From IMG/VR virus record IMGVR_UViG_3300020045_000565, positions 1 through 25,379 of that record: a stretch of 25,379 nt of DNA; one strand, given 5' to 3'. Within the stretch, counting starts at the first letter, position 1. Each line of letters begins with the position of its first letter. This DNA is from a virus (taxonomy: Duplodnaviria > Caudoviricetes). The notes beneath the pieces were generated by a model. It searched no databases and had not been told where the DNA came from. It worked only from the letters and a program-made list of their open reading frames with translations. Below are positions 16,308 through 22,830 of the stretch, piece by piece. The position numbers and the translations under genes are program-made.

Positions 16308-16353
16308 ATAAAAATAGGGTCTCCTAGCAAACGCCGGGAGACCCTTTTCTTTT
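16308..16353. terminator. Bidirectional Rho-independent terminator between the convergent arms
   Basis: AGGGTCTCCT (16316-16325) pairs with GGGAGACCCT (16336-16345). A-rich tract on the left and T-rich tract on the right. Confidence 0.85.
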
Positions 16354-18286
16354 ATCCGTCTAAGACGTTACCAATTGTAACAACTTCACAACTATTTCCA
16401 ACACAAGCCAACTCTTGGCTACCGGTTGTCATGTCTTCTGTTTCATAGAACTTGAGATCATCCCAGTCAATCACTGGAAGCGGATGCTTCTCAAGCCACT
16501 CTTCGTATTGTTCCTTTGTAACTTCCTGATACGGTGCTTGCTTATATGAGCCCCCGTCATACGGTAGGAAGGATACACCAGACAACATATCGAAGTTCTT
16601 ATAAACCCAAGCAATTACATCAGGCCATTCTTCTTCTCGTACGTAGACAGTGGCCGAAGGCTTATGCTCACACCACTCTTCCTGCAAAGTCTTCCACAGT
16701 TCAAGAGACCCGATGGCAGTATCGTCATCTCGCATCTTAGAACCTTCAGGAGACTTCATCGGAAAATAGAAGACCGTAGTGCTGTCAGGCTTCGTGACAT
16801 CAGCTTCCGAGTATACGCCAGCATCCTTGAGGAACTGTGTAAGAGGGTCTTTGTTATCAGCTCGAACAGTACGAAGATAGTAAGGACTGTGCCGACTATG
16901 AAGACCAGAACCGCTATTAACAAGCTGAGACACAGTGCCACTTGGCTTAACACAAGTCGTAGCAGCTGACTGAGGAACCCCGAGCCTCTCAGCCCATTCC
17001 TTGTTCGTTGCCACAACCAAGTCGCGAACTTCATTCAGGACTTCTTTTGATACCAGCTCTGGATTATCGGCAATACCGGTGAGACTGACGCCCAGTAGTC
17101 GTTCTTCTTCGCAATTGTCTCGCCATGCTTTACGGAGGTACTTGAACTCTGTGAAAGTTGATTGGATCGTTCCAAGTATTGCCGCAATGCGAGCCTTTCT
17201 TTTGAACTCATCCACTGTATCCCCAGATCGGATAACAACTTCGGTAAGGTTGCAAAATTGCTGTGGGCGCAGGATAATCTCACTGCATGGGTTGGTCCCA
17301 AAATCAAAGGATGCATCACGCCGTCCATTTCGTCCAGCAATTGCTTGACAAGCATAGCGACTGAAGAATCCTCGCTCTCCTGATTTACTGTCATATAGTG
17401 CTTTCGCTTCTGTAAGAAACAAATCCATGTCGGGCTTGCGTCGGTTGTAGACTGCAGAGTTATTAGCCAAGGCGCGTTGGACATTGGATGACCACCAAGC
17501 TCCAGACTTAGCCGTACGCATACGATTGTCAGTCACATCAGACAGGCTGATAAGAGCTGACCGGCGCACACCACCGACGACTACAATCTCTGCAATCTTG
17601 CACATAAGATCGTGAGCTTCTAGTGAAGTGAGCTTTCGTCCGGCGGCACTAGAGACAAGACGTACGGTGAACTCAAAAAGCTCGACAAGAGGTTCAGGTC
17701 CAGACGCTCGTCCTCCAAAAGTTTTAAGCCTTGCTCCGGCAGGGCGAACAGCTGATACATCCCACTTAGGGATTTGACCAGCAATAAGTAGGGAAAATAG
17801 TTCACGAAAAGCTCGCGCCCATCCCTCTTTACTATCTCCAACTCTAACGGTGGTATCTGAATCGTTAAACTGCTCTGCGATTCGAGGGAGCTTGTCAGTG
17901 TATTGTTCCTCTACAGAAAAGCCGACGCCCGTGCCACACATAAGGATGTACATAGCTTCGTCAAAAGCTCTAGGACTGTCCACCACCAGATAAGCACAGT
18001 TATAGGCAGCAACATCACAACGGTCGAGAGCCGATCCCGCAGCCATGAGCGCCCGCATTGAAGGCATGACTTCCAAGTTGTAGATTGCATCATACAGTTC
18101 TTTCTCTTCTCCTGATGACAATCGACTGCGGTTCTTAGAGCCTGTGTTAATACGGGATGAGTAATAATTAACAAGACGATCTACGGTCTCATCCCAATTC
18201 TCTCGACGACCTAGATCGTCTCGCCACCTAGCATAACGACTCTTATAAATGAACTCTTCATAGACAGACTGAAACGGATTGGTCAA
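16352..18286 (-). CDS. nrdJ: Class II (adenosylcobalamin-dependent) ribonucleotide reductase
   Basis: 644 aa with TNPCSEI, VVVGGVRRSALI, TCVKPSGTVSQL and a C-terminal CxxxxC. TTG start with a GAGG RBS. No small-subunit gene nearby. Confidence 0.9.
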   Translation of the reverse strand: MTNPFQSVYEEFIYKSRYARWRDDLGRRENWDETVDRLVNYYSSRINTGSKNRSRLSSGEEKELYDAIYNLEVMPSMRALMAAGSALDRCDVAAYNCAYLVVDSPRAFDEAMYILMCGTGVGFSVEEQYTDKLPRIAEQFNDSDTTVRVGDSKEGWARAFRELFSLLIAGQIPKWDVSAVRPAGARLKTFGGRASGPEPLVELFEFTVRLVSSAAGRKLTSLEAHDLMCKIAEIVVVGGVRRSALISLSDVTDNRMRTAKSGAWWSSNVQRALANNSAVYNRRKPDMDLFLTEAKALYDSKSGERGFFSRYACQAIAGRNGRRDASFDFGTNPCSEIILRPQQFCNLTEVVIRSGDTVDEFKRKARIAAILGTIQSTFTEFKYLRKAWRDNCEEERLLGVSLTGIADNPELVSKEVLNEVRDLVVATNKEWAERLGVPQSAATTCVKPSGTVSQLVNSGSGLHSRHSPYYLRTVRADNKDPLTQFLKDAGVYSEADVTKPDSTTVFYFPMKSPEGSKMRDDDTAIGSLELWKTLQEEWCEHKPSATVYVREEEWPDVIAWVYKNFDMLSGVSFLPYDGGSYKQAPYQEVTKEQYEEWLEKHPLPVIDWDDLKFYETEDMTTGSQELACVGNSCEVVTIGNVLDG

Positions 18287-18287
18287 A

Positions 18288-18728
18288 TTAAAGGCCTCGC
18301 ATGTTAGGGGCTTCGTACGTAGAAGGTTTCATAAAAAGGTAAAGTTTTTCAACTTCTTCAAATGTTGCGTTATTTTTCATCGCGTTTGCTTTGTATGACA
18401 TTACTTGTATATTCCCTTTAATGTACCCTTTTGCGCTGTCAATTCTATCTAAAGAAGGGGAGTTGTCTTTGAAACCCCCTTTATTGAATACTAGTTCCAT
18501 TCCAAGTACGGGACAATGGGTTGGGATTAAAATGTCTTCTTTAGATATATCAAAATCTAAACCCTTTCGTCGAGCTCTAGATTTTGCACCTTGCAACATA
18601 TAGTGAGCGGGGTCTTCTTTCTTACGCTCTTCAAATCGAACCCGTGCTCTCTCAGAGTATTTATGGCCGTTTAGTTGGTTGTATCTTTTGTGGTATTCGC
18701 GTCTAGCTTCTGCGTCTACGTACGGCAT
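18288..18728 (-). CDS. Free-standing HNH-type homing endonuclease 1
   Basis: HCPVLG...SPSLDRIDSAKGYIKGNIQVMSYKANAMK, with a basic N-terminus. AT-rich relative to its neighbours. Confidence 0.8.
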   Translation of the reverse strand: MPYVDAEARREYHKRYNQLNGHKYSERARVRFEERKKEDPAHYMLQGAKSRARRKGLDFDISKEDILIPTHCPVLGMELVFNKGGFKDNSPSLDRIDSAKGYIKGNIQVMSYKANAMKNNATFEEVEKLYLFMKPSTYEAPNMRGL

Positions 18729-19105
18729 TACAGTCCACGCATATTCGGAGCAACGTAGTTAGGACCTTTAACAATTTTTCCGTCTTCTCGGAAGATGACC
18801 TTACCGTCAACAACCTTACTTAGGTTGCTGTTGTGTACGCGATTGAAAGAAGGCTCAGCAGGGATATTGAAGTATACAGCCGCTTGAGAGACTACGTATT
18901 GTAGGTCTGCCCACTCCTTGCAGAGGTCGGCTCGTAGGTCGTAGTTACGCATGTCCTTGACGTAAGCTTCTGCAGCGACAAAGAACTCGTTAAGTTCCTC
19001 AACGATACAAGTAGCAATAGACTCATCAATGCTGTCCGCAGTCCCATCGAAATCCTTCTTACCTGCTGCCTTACGGAACTCGTTAACCTTCTCTTCACGG
19101 GTCAT
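18728..19105 (-). CDS. MazG-like / PRA-PH family nucleoside triphosphate pyrophosphohydrolase
   Basis: IVEELNEF...KEWADLQYV...FNRVHNSNLSK...REDGKIVKGPNY. Start taken at MTREEK. Confidence 0.85.
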   Translation of the reverse strand: MTREEKVNEFRKAAGKKDFDGTADSIDESIATCIVEELNEFFVAAEAYVKDMRNYDLRADLCKEWADLQYVVSQAAVYFNIPAEPSFNRVHNSNLSKVVDGKVIFREDGKIVKGPNYVAPNMRGL

Positions 19106-19460
19106 TCTTTTTCCTATCATATGTAATAATCCTGTGGCAATTTGAACACAACAAAGTACATTTTCTGATTTCTTTGAAAACCACTTTCAACTTATAATTT
19201 GAAAGCATAGTTCCAACTGGCGCGATTTTGTTGTCTTCTGTATGGTCGAAGTCGAGAGCTACCGGGCTTTTATTGTAGCCACAAGATTGGCAGCCTTTTG
19301 CAACTTTGTACTTTGAAAGCCAGTATTTTCTACGCTCGTACTTTGGCTTTCTATTTTTATACCAATTGTCGTCTCGATACTTTTTAAATTTATCCGGGTT
19401 AGCTAAATAGTACGCACGCTGATACTGTTTTCGTTTTTCAATATCAACCTCCGTCATCAT
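19095..19460 (-). CDS. Free-standing HNH-type endonuclease 2
   Basis: CQSCG...ALDFDH...EIRKCTLLCSNCHRI. Very AT-rich. Start is uncertain (19457 or 19460). Confidence 0.8.
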   Translation of the reverse strand: MMTEVDIEKRKQYQRAYYLANPDKFKKYRDDNWYKNRKPKYERRKYWLSKYKVAKGCQSCGYNKSPVALDFDHTEDNKIAPVGTMLSNYKLKVVFKEIRKCTLLCSNCHRIITYDRKKNDP

Positions 19461-19578
19461 CCTCATCTTCCTCAATTACATTCTTACTACGCTTGGGAAA
19501 CCGGAAGTCCTTTTCCTTGTGGAACTTCCGGCGTATTTCCCTCTTCTGCTTTTCTTCGTACTTGTTAAGTCCGCTCAT
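19444..19578 (-). CDS. Small highly charged protein, 44 aa (absent from the ORF track)
   Basis: MSGLNKYEEKQKREIRRKFHKEKDFRFPKRSKNVIEEDEDDDGG*. It fills the gap exactly and overlaps both neighbouring genes. Confidence 0.6.
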   Translation of the reverse strand: MSGLNKYEEKQKREIRRKFHKEKDFRFPKRSKNVIEEDEDDDGG

Positions 19579-19849
19579 AGCTCTCAAACTCTGGAGTCAC
19601 ATCTCGACCGCCTAGGTTGTCACGTCCATACTCAAACTCAATAAGAAGTTCAATGTAGTGCTTAGCCTTCAGGAGGTCCTCTAGACCCCCCTTAGACTTA
19701 TGACGTGAAACGTACTTAATAATATTAGATTGACAATGATCCAAGTGATTACGCATACAATACTCGATAGGTTGGATAGCAAAGTCTTTATAATGGCCGC
19801 CACCTACCTGTACGTCAAGCGGATTCGTCGTCGTAGTCGAGGAGGTCAT
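19565..19849 (-). CDS. DUF3310 / T7 gp1.7-like putative nucleotide kinase
   Basis: QVGGGHYK...IQPIEY...NIIKYVSRHKSKGGLEDLLKAKHYIELLIE. Start taken at MTSS with a GGAG RBS. Confidence 0.8.
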   Translation of the reverse strand: MTSSTTTTNPLDVQVGGGHYKDFAIQPIEYCMRNHLDHCQSNIIKYVSRHKSKGGLEDLLKAKHYIELLIEFEYGRDNLGGRDVTPEFESYERT

Positions 19850-20276: not shown

Positions 20277-21020
20277 CTAACCGTATGCTTTCTTTACCCT
20301 GTCGAGGCTAATCCACTGGAAGTCAAACAACCCGTCTTCAGCGTTGTCTAGGACAGCGATACCACGAGACCACATAGCGTTTGCAGGGCCTGCGTAATCA
20401 GCGTCATAGTCTACGTACGAGCCACAAGCAAGACCCATAAGGGATCGTCCCGGGGTCCTATCAATCTTGTAGTCTGTGACGTGTGAGTGACCAACAACTG
20501 TACTCTTATTCCGCTTTTTGATAATGCTCCAAGCTGGATGAGTTCCACCGATAGGGCGACCCATCAAACCTGATGTTGCGTAGTGCATGAAGTCGATACC
20601 CTGGATATCAATAGGCTGAAGAAAAGGGACTACTTCCCAAGGATAATCCTCGTAGCCGATATCCGAGTTCTTCAACTTACCTTCAAACACAGGGTTCTCA
20701 GCGACATACCGTTCAGGACGAATGTCGTGATTGCCCAAACAGAAAACGAAGCGAGGCATCTTCTTCTTAGCTTTACGTACGTAGTGGAACAGCTTCTCTT
20801 GTGCGTCCTTAGCAGCGTTGCAGTCAGCTTCGTAACGAGCACCTTCCATCTCTGCGGCCTTACTGTGGAAACATAGGGACGGCATATCAGCAAGATCGCC
20901 GATGTTAACTACTACGTCGGGCTTCATGTCGTGGATAAGTTGTCCGGCCCAGAGGAACCTATCGTTGTTATAGTCGGGGTGGGCGTGAGAATCTGGAAGG
21001 ATTAAGATGCGCTTACCCAT
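20277..21020 (-). CDS. Calcineurin-like metallophosphoesterase
   Basis: DSH, GDLAD, GNHD and GHSH motifs. Confidence 0.85.
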   Translation of the reverse strand: MGKRILILPDSHAHPDYNNDRFLWAGQLIHDMKPDVVVNIGDLADMPSLCFHSKAAEMEGARYEADCNAAKDAQEKLFHYVRKAKKKMPRFVFCLGNHDIRPERYVAENPVFEGKLKNSDIGYEDYPWEVVPFLQPIDIQGIDFMHYATSGLMGRPIGGTHPAWSIIKKRNKSTVVGHSHVTDYKIDRTPGRSLMGLACGSYVDYDADYAGPANAMWSRGIAVLDNAEDGLFDFQWISLDRVKKAYG

Positions 21021-21483
21021 TCCACTTCTCCAAATAGTTTAGCATATTCTGCAAAGTATTTTCACTTTCTTTTACAAGACCTAAAACTTTATTGCAATGA
21101 TTGCACAAAATGTCTCTAATTTTCCCAGTAGAGTGGCAATGATCTACTACTCCGCGATTCTCACCTTTTAAAGTTAAAGGCGTTGCACAACAAACGCATT
21201 TATTGTTCTGCTGTTCTAATTTGTTTTCAACTTCTGAATACGAGAGCTTGTACTTCTTTTTATAATGATATTCAGCTCTTTCTTCAAAAGACATTTCAGA
21301 CCAAGTTTTTCGAGCTTTCTCTTGCTCTTCTTTTCTACAAGGCCTATTTGTTTGCCACCTTTTAACTTCTTTAGCTTTAGAGAGTCGTTTTTCTCTGTGG
21401 CGTCTGTAATGTTTCTGAGTTGATGTCAAGTCATCTCTAAAAGTCCACTCGTCTATAATGCAATTCCCGTGAGGTTTACTCAT
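21013..21483 (-). CDS. Free-standing endonuclease VII-family (His-Me) homing endonuclease
   Basis: QNNKCVCC...VVDHCHSTGKIRDILCNHCNKVLG. Very AT-rich. Start taken at MSKPHG, overlapping the end of the upstream gene. Confidence 0.8.
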   Translation of the reverse strand: MSKPHGNCIIDEWTFRDDLTSTQKHYRRHREKRLSKAKEVKRWQTNRPCRKEEQEKARKTWSEMSFEERAEYHYKKKYKLSYSEVENKLEQQNNKCVCCATPLTLKGENRGVVDHCHSTGKIRDILCNHCNKVLGLVKESENTLQNMLNYLEKWNG

Positions 21484-21841
21484 ACCATTCCTTCGGAATA
21501 GTGGTTCCTTCACTCCAAGGAAAACCGTTGTCGTCACACCATTGCCAATACATACGGCTATTGCTACTCTTTGTTATACGATTGTTTGCTTTCTGAAATA
21601 AGAACCGAATGTCAAGATGTGGATTCTGTCGCTTAACGGCAATCATCTTTGTACGATCCTTACTCTCGAAGTAACCCTTAGCTTCTACGATGATGCCGTT
21701 ATCAAGAACGAAGTCAGGGATATACCTCTTAGTAAGTGTATACTTTACGACAGGTTCTGACGGCTCATGAGCAGCTTCAGGATTAGCCAGAGCTACTCGC
21801 TCTTCATATCCACTCCTATACTTCCGTTTGGGGGACTTCAT
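21476..21841 (-). CDS. Endonuclease I / Holliday junction resolvase (T7 gp3-like)
   Basis: YRSGYEE, YIPDFVL, IVEAKGYF, DIRFLF and YWQWC motifs. Confidence 0.85.
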   Translation of the reverse strand: MKSPKRKYRSGYEERVALANPEAAHEPSEPVVKYTLTKRYIPDFVLDNGIIVEAKGYFESKDRTKMIAVKRQNPHLDIRFLFQKANNRITKSSNSRMYWQWCDDNGFPWSEGTTIPKEWYE

Positions 21842-22664
21842 ATACGTCTGGTTCCTTCTTTACCGTAACGAGATACCGCGGCCCCGTAGAATAGATGAAC
21901 GTACGGAGACCGGGATAACACTCGTGCTTGAATGCGCAGTAAGAACACTGTGTTCCAAGCTTCATGTTCCCACTCTTGCCATCAGGCTCAGGCTCGAAGC
22001 AACGAGGGGGTGGAGTATCGAGTGCGATAACTTCCTTCAGGTGTTTGATACGAGGGGCTGGTGGGTGGTCCGCTACGATAGAAGAACTTACGTTCATCAC
22101 TGTAAGATCACCACTCACCTTGTCGGCGGCAAGAAAAGCTCCACCTTCTCCCGGAGTAAGGACACCTGTGTAGCCAGAGATTTGTTGGATATAGCCAAAA
22201 GGGTCATTCTCAATGAGTGAATGGTCTTTGAATTTCTTATACGAATAGGGACTCGCTGACTTGACATCGACAACGACACCATCAATGATAGCGTCGATAT
22301 GCCCCTTGACACCATCCACTTCAACTTCCATTTGCTCAGACTGAACATCATGGCCAGATTCTTTAGCAAGGAATAGAAGAAGAGCCTCAATTACATCACC
22401 ATACATGAATTTGAAAAACGTCTTAGACGTCATCTCTTCTGCAGGATACCCCTTAGCCATGTACCACAACTGGCGGTCTGGCTTACCAAGAGCAGAGAAG
22501 CGTAGTGGGTCACGAACATTCTCACGAGAGGCTAGTCGTACGCGCATGAGATTCTTCATGTTCTCGCCGAACTGTTCTAGGTTCTCTTCGTTAGGTTCGT
22601 GCATTACATTCGGGTCGAACAACGAATAGATGTCCGACACGAGGGTGTCAAGTGTTTTCGTCAT
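21816..22664 (-). CDS. PD-(D/E)XK Cas4-like exonuclease
   Basis: LRFSALGKPDRQLWY, GHIDAIIDGVVVDVKSAS, YIQQISGY and CSYCAFKHEC. Start taken at MTKTLD. Confidence 0.8.
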   Translation of the reverse strand: MTKTLDTLVSDIYSLFDPNVMHEPNEENLEQFGENMKNLMRVRLASRENVRDPLRFSALGKPDRQLWYMAKGYPAEEMTSKTFFKFMYGDVIEALLLFLAKESGHDVQSEQMEVEVDGVKGHIDAIIDGVVVDVKSASPYSYKKFKDHSLIENDPFGYIQQISGYTGVLTPGEGGAFLAADKVSGDLTVMNVSSSIVADHPPAPRIKHLKEVIALDTPPPRCFEPEPDGKSGNMKLGTQCSYCAFKHECYPGLRTFIYSTGPRYLVTVKKEPDVYEVPQTEV

Positions 22665-22830
22665 ATTCAATACCAAACTTCTTCAAGGTTTCTACAGACT
22701 CTAAGTAGTCTTCACGTTCGTAGTAAGGGCCTCCACAACAATCAGGGTCGCCACAAGAGTTGTCAGTTTCATACCCAACAACATAGTCAATAGCCCATTT
22801 AAGTTCTTGGAGTTGTGTCAGGTTTAGCAT
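22648..22830 (-). CDS. Small hypothetical protein with a CGDPDCCGG Cys cluster
   Basis: About 60 aa with GAGG upstream. Overlaps both neighbours. Start is uncertain (22830 or 22839). Confidence 0.55.
   Translation of the reverse strand: MLNLTQLQELKWAIDYVVGYETDNSCGDPDCCGGPYYEREDYLESVETLKKFGIEYDENT

What the first reader, a model, noticed from the sequence alone, without database searches (positions are those of the whole stretch)
18288..18772. Homing endonuclease between two synonymously recoded copies of the MazG-like gene's tail
Seen: the MazG-like gene ends VKGPNYVAPNMRGL* and the HNH gene directly downstream ends MKPSTYEAPNMRGL*. The codons are tac gtt gct ccg aat atg cgt gga ctg taa versus tac gaa gcc cct aac atg cga ggc ctt taa, so all six degenerate codons of APNMRGL differ while the peptide is identical. 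The downstream copy also holds the GAGG RBS for nrdJ. Inference: the HNH element inserted about 10-14 codons before the end of the MazG gene. It brought a replacement tail that restores the protein and could remove the nuclease target, and it uses the displaced original tail as its own C-terminus and stop codon. Established parallels are integrases restoring tRNA 3' ends and fungal mitochondrial endonuclease elements that supply new atp6/atp9 3' ends.
Basis: partly seen in the sequence, partly recalled or inferred. Interest (0 to 1): 0.85.

Follow-up and report, generated by a model that had tools for sequence, protein, structure and literature searches.

The report
Phage nuclease element swaps gene tails
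A predicted DNA-cutting-enzyme gene sits 14 codons before the end of a phage nucleotide-metabolism gene, with a different version of that gene's ending in front of it and the ending found in uninvaded relatives behind it, so it likely spreads as a selfish element that keeps its host gene whole by swapping in a new tail.

Summary
Confirmed, and relatives support it. Two close phages lacking the nuclease end mazG with the DOWNSTREAM copy (43/44 and 44/44 nt; upstream copy 29-30/44), so a net 440-bp element inserted 14 codons before the stop, bringing a replacement tail; the original tail now ends the nuclease and keeps nrdJ's start. One of these relatives carries a 43%-identical nuclease inserted the same way in its exonuclease gene, where this window is the empty allele. 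Corrections: the enzyme is PacI-like (no catalytic His), not a canonical HNH; and the tail need not be 'recoded': it changes 5 of 14 residues and differs from the original no more than natural alleles differ (30/45 vs median 29/45 nt). K-G-type tails are scattered over the MazG tree (9 of 114, 8 changes), and two nuclease-free hybrids exist, suggesting invasion and loss cycles. Cleavage is untested. The layout is known from fungal mitochondrial mORF gene hybrids; nine literature searches found no phage description. This scan noted the same layout on other DNA before. New variant of a known kind.

The parts
18728..19120 (-). MazG-like nucleotide pyrophosphohydrolase gene (130 aa), host gene; now a hybrid of native body and foreign tail
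   Evidence: Pfam PRA-PH E 3e-8, PHROG 671 E 6e-26; relatives in phage records annotated MazG/nucleotide pyrophosphohydrolase; body 89% and 87% nt identical to L001, L002
18728..18772 (-). Replacement tail, codons 117-130 plus stop (VKGPNYVAPNMRGL*), left part of the element; stop overlaps the nuclease ATG
   Evidence: 29/44 and 30/44 nt to the tails of empty alleles L001, L002; K-G-type tail shared by 9 of 114 MazG homologues; mazG body/tail/nuclease start bridged by a 151-nt contig of run X1, 5 differences
18332..18728 (-). Body of the PacI-like ββα-metal nuclease gene (residues 1-133), 39% GC against 47-48% in mazG and nrdJ
   Evidence: PHROG 3322 endonuclease E 4e-36, no Pfam hit; all 12 family-invariant residues present; AF2 pLDDT 91; best fold match PacI, Foldseek E 0.0097 prob 1.0 and VIA Z 6.7, rmsd 6.5 over 97 residues; GC
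18288..18331 (-). Displaced original mazG tail (…KPSTYEAPNMRGL*), read in frame as the nuclease's last 13 residues and stop
   Evidence: 43/44 (L001) and 44/44 (L002) nt identity, continuing into the same TTTGA junction in L001; junction at TG-AAA, where the nuclease family's own M/L-K meets mazG's L-K
18295..18298 (-). GAGG, likely ribosome-binding site of nrdJ, inside the displaced tail
   Evidence: 8 nt before TTG at 18286; same TAA-T-TTG junction in L001, L005, L151, L156; function inferred
16352..18286 (-). Class II ribonucleotide reductase gene (nrdJ), downstream neighbour
   Evidence: Pfam RNR_Alpha and RNR-II_ins_dom
21816..22676 (-). Cas4-domain exonuclease gene: the EMPTY allele of a second element of the same nuclease family found in relative G001 (L149)
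   Evidence: PHROG 1990; its end YLVTVKKEPDVYEVPQTEV* matches the end of the L149 nuclease, while L149's exonuclease diverges over its last ~28 codons after 22 identical codons

Best explanation
A net 440-bp element made of a foreign mazG tail plus a predicted PacI-like nuclease gene sits at codon 117 of the phage's mazG gene, with the original 14 codons left behind it, and it likely spreads by homing: the nuclease would cut mazG alleles that are continuous across the K-I-L-K-P junction, and repair from the occupied copy would insert the element while restoring a full-length MazG. Likely origin: a free-standing nuclease gene behind a resistant K-G-type mazG crossed into a K-P-type phage, by a homologous crossover in the mazG body and a microhomology join at TG-AAA on the right. 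The displaced tail is kept because it holds nrdJ's start signals; its fusion to the nuclease is probably a by-product. Recombination between the two tails, or short-patch conversion, would leave nuclease-free hybrid alleles.
For: Shown: empty alleles match upstream gene then downstream copy; contigs of runs X2 and X6 skip a net 440 bp; left junction present in run X1; homologue P0005 (57%) carries a different mazG-type tail (LKPEGYVKPDMRGI, like mazG of L157/L163) at the same junction, while P0002-P0004 (59-60%) stop 4-7 residues after it; a second family member (43% identical) has the same layout in the exonuclease gene of G001, with this window empty there; the tail moves between lineages: P0149 and P0175 share 30/30 last residues but 52/93 of the body, while their nearest K-P relatives share 92/94 and 96/103 of the body but 21/30 and 19/30 of the tail; K-G label needs 8 changes for 9 rows, at least 4 forced by starred branches; lower GC of the nuclease gene. 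Established knowledge: free-standing phage endonucleases home by cutting a neighbouring gene, and one-sided repair with microhomology junctions is known in T4 (PMC2988022, passages).
Against: No cleavage or homing assay. The donor state (K-G mazG followed by a tail-less nuclease) was not seen in DNA; P0145 and P0002 only share a longest-contig length and source pair. The layout is rare in the family: 2 of 76 evaluable nuclease loci. K-G tails also occur without the nuclease (L003, L156, L170), so the tail's spread is not shown to depend on it. The right junction was covered by none of the 8 runs laid. The fold match to PacI is moderate (Z 6.7). The L149 nuclease has A in place of the family-invariant R95. 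The MazG tree is a quick tree with 12 of 111 branches starred.
Confidence: 0.75

Rival explanations
1. Passive mosaic: one illegitimate recombination between co-infecting phages copied in a foreign mazG end and an adjacent nuclease gene; the nuclease does not target this site (it may degrade host or competitor DNA, or be inactive).
For: Only one occupied DNA locus at this site among 22 pattern-matched mazG tails plus the window; K-G tails exist without the nuclease; PacI itself is a restriction-type enzyme (PMC5714182, passages).
Against: Same junction in P0005 with a different host tail; same layout at a second gene; the replaced half is the same K-I-x-K-x region in scattered lineages; displaced tail is 43-44/44 identical to empty alleles whose bodies differ by 11-13%.
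Confidence: 0.13
2. Recoding in place: the tail was duplicated within this lineage and selection then drove synonymous divergence to block self-cleavage or deletion.
For: 6 of 8 shared degenerate codons differ against 20/96 and 23/97 in the body (Fisher p 0.003, 0.005); the window's tail is the only one of the 9 K-G tails with N rather than D in P-N-M, as in the native allele (read by eye).
Against: Among 190 pairs of 20 natural tails, 60% of shared degenerate codons differ, 34 of 147 comparable pairs reach 75% or more, and median identity is 29/45 against 30/45 for the two copies; 5 residues differ and match a K-G-P-N-Y type found in other lineages.
Confidence: 0.08
3. The nuclease lies in a self-splicing intron or intein whose removal rejoins mazG to the downstream tail.
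For: Removal of the net 440 bp restores the empty allele in frame.
Against: The insert is coding from end to end, mazG has its own stop before the nuclease, and no Rfam family matched 17800-19700 at E up to 1.
Confidence: 0.02
4. Assembly chimera of two strains.
For: No run served holds the whole stretch; right junction not covered.
Against: Left junction bridged in run X1; the same right-hand fusion in independent protein P0005; the copies are too unlike (30/45) to be confused by an assembler.
Confidence: 0.02

Closest known systems
Mobile endonuclease ORFs (mORFs) forming 'gene hybrids' in fungal mitochondria: Glomus atp6, atp9, cox2, nad3; first case Allomyces macrogynus atp6 (PMC3630166, passages read)
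   Same: Endonuclease ORF inserted near a gene's 3' end with a foreign C-terminus in front and the native C-terminus behind; the native copy matches relatives, the inserted one is from a divergent donor.
   Different: Phage rather than organelle; PacI-like ββα-metal enzyme rather than LAGLIDADG/GIY-YIG; only 14 codons; the displaced tail is read as the nuclease's own end and carries the next gene's start signals.
Free-standing homing endonucleases of T-even phages, intronless homing (seg, mob genes; PMC2988022, passages)
   Same: No intron; nuclease gene directly behind a host gene with a TAATG stop-start overlap (as nrdA/mobE); likely cleavage of the neighbouring gene with co-conversion of a resistant allele.
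   Different: There the cut site is hundreds to thousands of bases from an intergenic insertion and no duplicated gene end is described in the passages read (0 hits for 'duplicat'); here the insertion is inside the coding sequence with homology on both flanks, as for an intron.
PacI-like His-Me finger nucleases (group 20 of PMC5714182; rare PacI-like phage HNHEs in Skunavirus, PMC12724721; passages)
   Same: Best structural match is PacI; no catalytic His, invariant Tyr102 in the loop.
   Different: 18-19% identity, Z 6.7 only; a single Cys; no sequence match to any PDB chain; activity untested.
Integrase-mediated tRNA/tmRNA 3'-end replacement (recalled, no call)
   Same: The element supplies a replacement 3' end and displaces the original.
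   Different: No integrase and no identical att core: the longest word shared by the two copies is 6 nt and out of register.

Membership tests
mORF-type gene-hybrid element | Endonuclease ORF between two versions of the host gene's C-terminus | tested here: met
mORF-type gene-hybrid element | Downstream copy is the native one (matches empty relatives); upstream copy is foreign | tested here: met
   43/44 and 44/44 vs 29/44 and 30/44
mORF-type gene-hybrid element | LAGLIDADG or GIY-YIG enzyme in a mitochondrial genome | tested here: not met
   Phage record, PacI-like fold; so it works like an mORF but is not one
mORF-type gene-hybrid element | Hybrid gene expressed | not testable with these tools
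   No RNA holder listed
Homing endonuclease gene | Occupied and empty cognate alleles among relatives | tested here: met
   L001, L002, X2, X6
Homing endonuclease gene | Intact nuclease fold and conserved active-site residues | tested here: met
   12 of 12 invariant columns of a 51-sequence alignment
Homing endonuclease gene | Cuts the empty allele, spares the occupied one, and is over-inherited | not testable with these tools
   Needs enzyme and homing assays
Canonical HNH (His general base) | Catalytic His at the end of the first β-strand | tested here: not met
   D94-R95 at that place, invariant in the family; no Pfam HNH hit
PacI-like ββα-metal nuclease | PacI-like fold with loop Tyr replacing His | tested here: inconclusive
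   PacI is the top hit in both fold searches but at E 0.0097 and Z 6.7; invariant Y102; equivalence to PacI's Tyr not checked residue by residue
Group I intron | Ribozyme core around the ORF | tested here: not met
   No Rfam match; insert fully coding

The most novel reading that the evidence does not exclude
Phage PacI-like nucleases form a class of 'tail-swap' homing elements, a third way besides introns and inteins to sit harmlessly inside a gene. They cycle through invasion and collapse by recombination between the two tails, each cycle leaving a nuclease-free but resistant hybrid allele, and so move a C-terminal module of MazG (and of the exonuclease) between phage lineages; the in-frame displaced tail keeps translational coupling to the next gene.
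Probability: 0.35. Interest if true: 0.72.

Novelty: new variant of a known kind. Interest (0 to 1): 0.52.

Why it matters
It gives a precise, testable target for an uncharacterised nuclease family (the junction is known to the base from natural empty alleles), with a reciprocal second site in a sister phage as a built-in specificity control. It shows the fungal 'gene hybrid' strategy in phages and explains why gene ends of phage metabolic genes can have a different history from their bodies, which matters for phylogenies and for annotation (the copies are invisible to DNA repeat finders).

Tried and rejected
Scan of genome contigs with alignment A1: 80 pattern matches, none a relative. PDB sequence search with A2: 0 hits. 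Phage records: best nuclease and MazG matches all under 60%, not followed. DNA context of P0002-P0005 could not be fetched; cluster look-up gave no accessions. First survey script gave no answer; the null was inflated by nuclease paralogues (L137 false top hit) and was redone. Four-residue end matches (L078, L072, L079, L085, L077) and L027 are within chance (5 observed at score 20 or more including the two real cases; null rate 2.9% of 76) and were rejected. Body comparisons for L003 and L026 were out of register after an indel and are not used. No RNA holder listed. The careful tree did not finish; the quick tree is used. Intron, intein and integrase readings rejected. A 10-nt inverted match between the nuclease start and the displaced tail is at chance level. 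No complex prediction was run.

Full report
Setting. The window is a 25,379-base virus record with structural genes on the plus strand and DNA-metabolism genes on the minus strand. On the minus strand the order is: HNH-type ORF (19475-19095), MazG-like gene (19120-18728; Pfam PRA-PH, PHROG 671), the nuclease ORF (18728-18288; PHROG 3322 endonuclease, E 4e-36, no Pfam hit) and class II ribonucleotide reductase nrdJ (18286-16352).

Observation. The two ends read VKGPNYVAPNMRGL* and MKPSTYEAPNMRGL*; all six degenerate codons of APNMRGL differ. The end-anchored protein score is 45, above all 5,700 mismatched control pairs (maximum 38). GAGG lies 8 nt before nrdJ's TTG.

Which copy is original. Searches with MazG gave 21 viral and 31 metagenome loci. 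The two closest, L001 and L002 (body 89% and 87% nt identical), lack the nuclease and end GKILKPSTYEAPNMRGL*. Over the last 44 nt they match the downstream copy at 43/44 and 44/44 and the upstream copy at 29/44 and 30/44; in L001 the match switches from the upstream gene to the downstream copy inside codon 117 and runs on into the same TTTGA junction. So 441 nt stand in place of one base, net 440. Of 8 public runs laid (of 15 listed), X2 has a 498-nt contig joining 18313 to 18840 with 86 letters between, net 440; X1 has a 151-nt contig spanning mazG body, replacement tail and nuclease start with 5 differences. No run covered the right junction.

The nuclease. 244 homologues at E up to 0.001. 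Of the 12 best whose sequences I read, P0002-P0004 (59-60% identical) stop 4-7 residues after the M-K that marks the junction; P0005 (57%) continues LKPEGYVKPDMRGI, a MazG tail of the type seen in L157 and L163; the other 8 have unrelated ends. The tail is therefore not part of the family, and the family's own M/L-K meets MazG's L-K in frame, giving a TG-AAA microhomology (inference). Invariant residues are D65 C72 P73 S92 D94 R95 G101 Y102 N106 S111 N115 K118. The model is confident (pLDDT 91; tail unstructured, about 70-80) and its best match in both fold searches is PacI (Foldseek E 0.0097, probability 1.0; VIA Z 6.7, rmsd 6.5, 97 residues), a His-Me finger enzyme in which Tyr replaces His (PMC5714182, passages). 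These scores are moderate. It is best called PacI-like, not canonical HNH.

A reciprocal second case. The contig of L002 (G001), empty at mazG, carries a family member (43% identical) behind its Cas4-domain exonuclease. That exonuclease is identical to the window's for 22 codons, then diverges over its last ~28 codons and ends RYLTTIVKEPDVYEVKN*; the nuclease ends NWVLTTVKKEPDVYEVPKETV*, matching the window's exonuclease end YLVTVKKEPDVYEVPQTEV* and the DNA after it. The displaced tail overlaps the start of the next gene (endonuclease I), so it cannot be lost. The replaced stretch is longer than the displaced one, as expected from a homologous left crossover and a non-homologous right join (inference). 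Across fetched loci, 2 of 76 evaluable family members (87 distinct C-termini, 11 without an upstream ORF) show the layout: these two. It is a recurring but uncommon habit.

Recoded or foreign? The tail is more diverged than the body (6/8 vs 20/96 and 23/97; p 0.003, 0.005), but no more than natural alleles: among 190 pairs of 20 tails, 60% of shared degenerate codons differ, and median identity is 29/45 against 30/45 for the two copies. Of 114 MazG homologues, 9 have K-G-type tails and 105 K-P-type (99 parsed plus 6 mis-parsed, read by eye). On a quick tree of the bodies the K-G label needs 8 changes (shuffled mean 8.8; at least 4 forced by starred branches). P0149 and P0175 share their last 30 residues exactly but only 52/93 of the body. 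The K-G tail thus moves between lineages; the DNA context of these proteins was not available. One point for the in-place reading: the window's K-G tail alone has the native N.

Nuclease-free hybrids. L003 has a K-G tail followed directly by its reductase gene, with the same junction as its K-P sister L026. A 4,461-nt contig of run X6 matches the replacement tail's 5' half (28/31) and then the displaced copy's last 20 nt (20/20), net skip 440 (laid at 82% likeness, short side 20 nt, so a hint only). Such alleles are what deletion between the two tails or short-patch conversion would leave; they could also be donor-type alleles. They point to the K-I-L-K-P half as the target (inference).

Mechanism. 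Shown: the anatomy, the polarity, the size, empty alleles, a second site, tail mobility. Inferred: cleavage across the junction, homing, origin by one homologous and one microhomology crossover, retention of the displaced tail for nrdJ's start, collapse to hybrids. Confidence 0.75.

Known systems. The layout equals the mORF gene hybrids of fungal mitochondria (PMC3630166, passages; Allomyces known to me only through that citation). Intronless homing, TAATG coupling and one-sided microhomology repair are described for T4 (PMC2988022, passages). Barth et al. (PMC10448857; abstract and passages for six terms) and the Skunavirus study (PMC12724721; passages) did not describe duplicated gene ends in what I saw. 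Nine full-text searches gave no phage description; the library lacks most subscription papers, and supplements were not read. Earlier notes of this scan report the same layout in other genomes; I did not check them.

Verdict. Real, well mapped, mechanistically familiar from fungi and apparently undescribed in phages; its added value is the reciprocal before/after pair, the mobile tail and a base-precise testable target. New variant of a known kind; interest 0.52.

Noticed in passing
window 19095-19475 (-): A different HNH-type ORF (PHROG 2255) begins at the place where relatives start mazG (identical upstream DNA to L002, then ATG ATG A) and supplies mazG with a new start; run X4 has a contig skipping it. 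mazG is thus invaded at both ends.
   Followed up: partly
window 21013-21537 (-): Endonuclease VII-type ORF starts with the M-S-K start used by the phosphoesterase in L027 and ends in a 3-4-codon mimic of that junction, giving the phosphoesterase a new start.
   Followed up: partly
L149 minus strand 3-930 (G001) vs window 21816-22676: Second tail-swap element of the same nuclease family in the exonuclease gene; window is the empty allele.
   Followed up: yes
L151, L153, L164 (from 1558) and L161: Mirror-image case: a GIY-YIG-like ORF (label by eye, not searched) starts with an nrdJ-like N-terminus (LTNPFPSSYEE) and is followed by a second nrdJ start (MYTPFPDAYSSFIYKSRY).
   Followed up: partly
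L027 3381-3737, L166, L154: Other endonuclease-like ORFs sit between mazG and nrdJ without tail duplication; the junction is a hotspot.
   Followed up: no
L001 2939-4606, L003 3393-5060 vs window 16352-18286: Close relatives carry a different reductase gene (555 aa, unrelated start) behind the same mazG junction.
   Followed up: no
window 18715-18724 and 18314-18323: Perfect 10-nt inverted match between the nuclease's first codons and the displaced tail; chance level, but would fit an autorepression site.
   Followed up: no
P0149, P0175: Identical last 30 residues on MazG bodies only 56% identical.
   Followed up: partly
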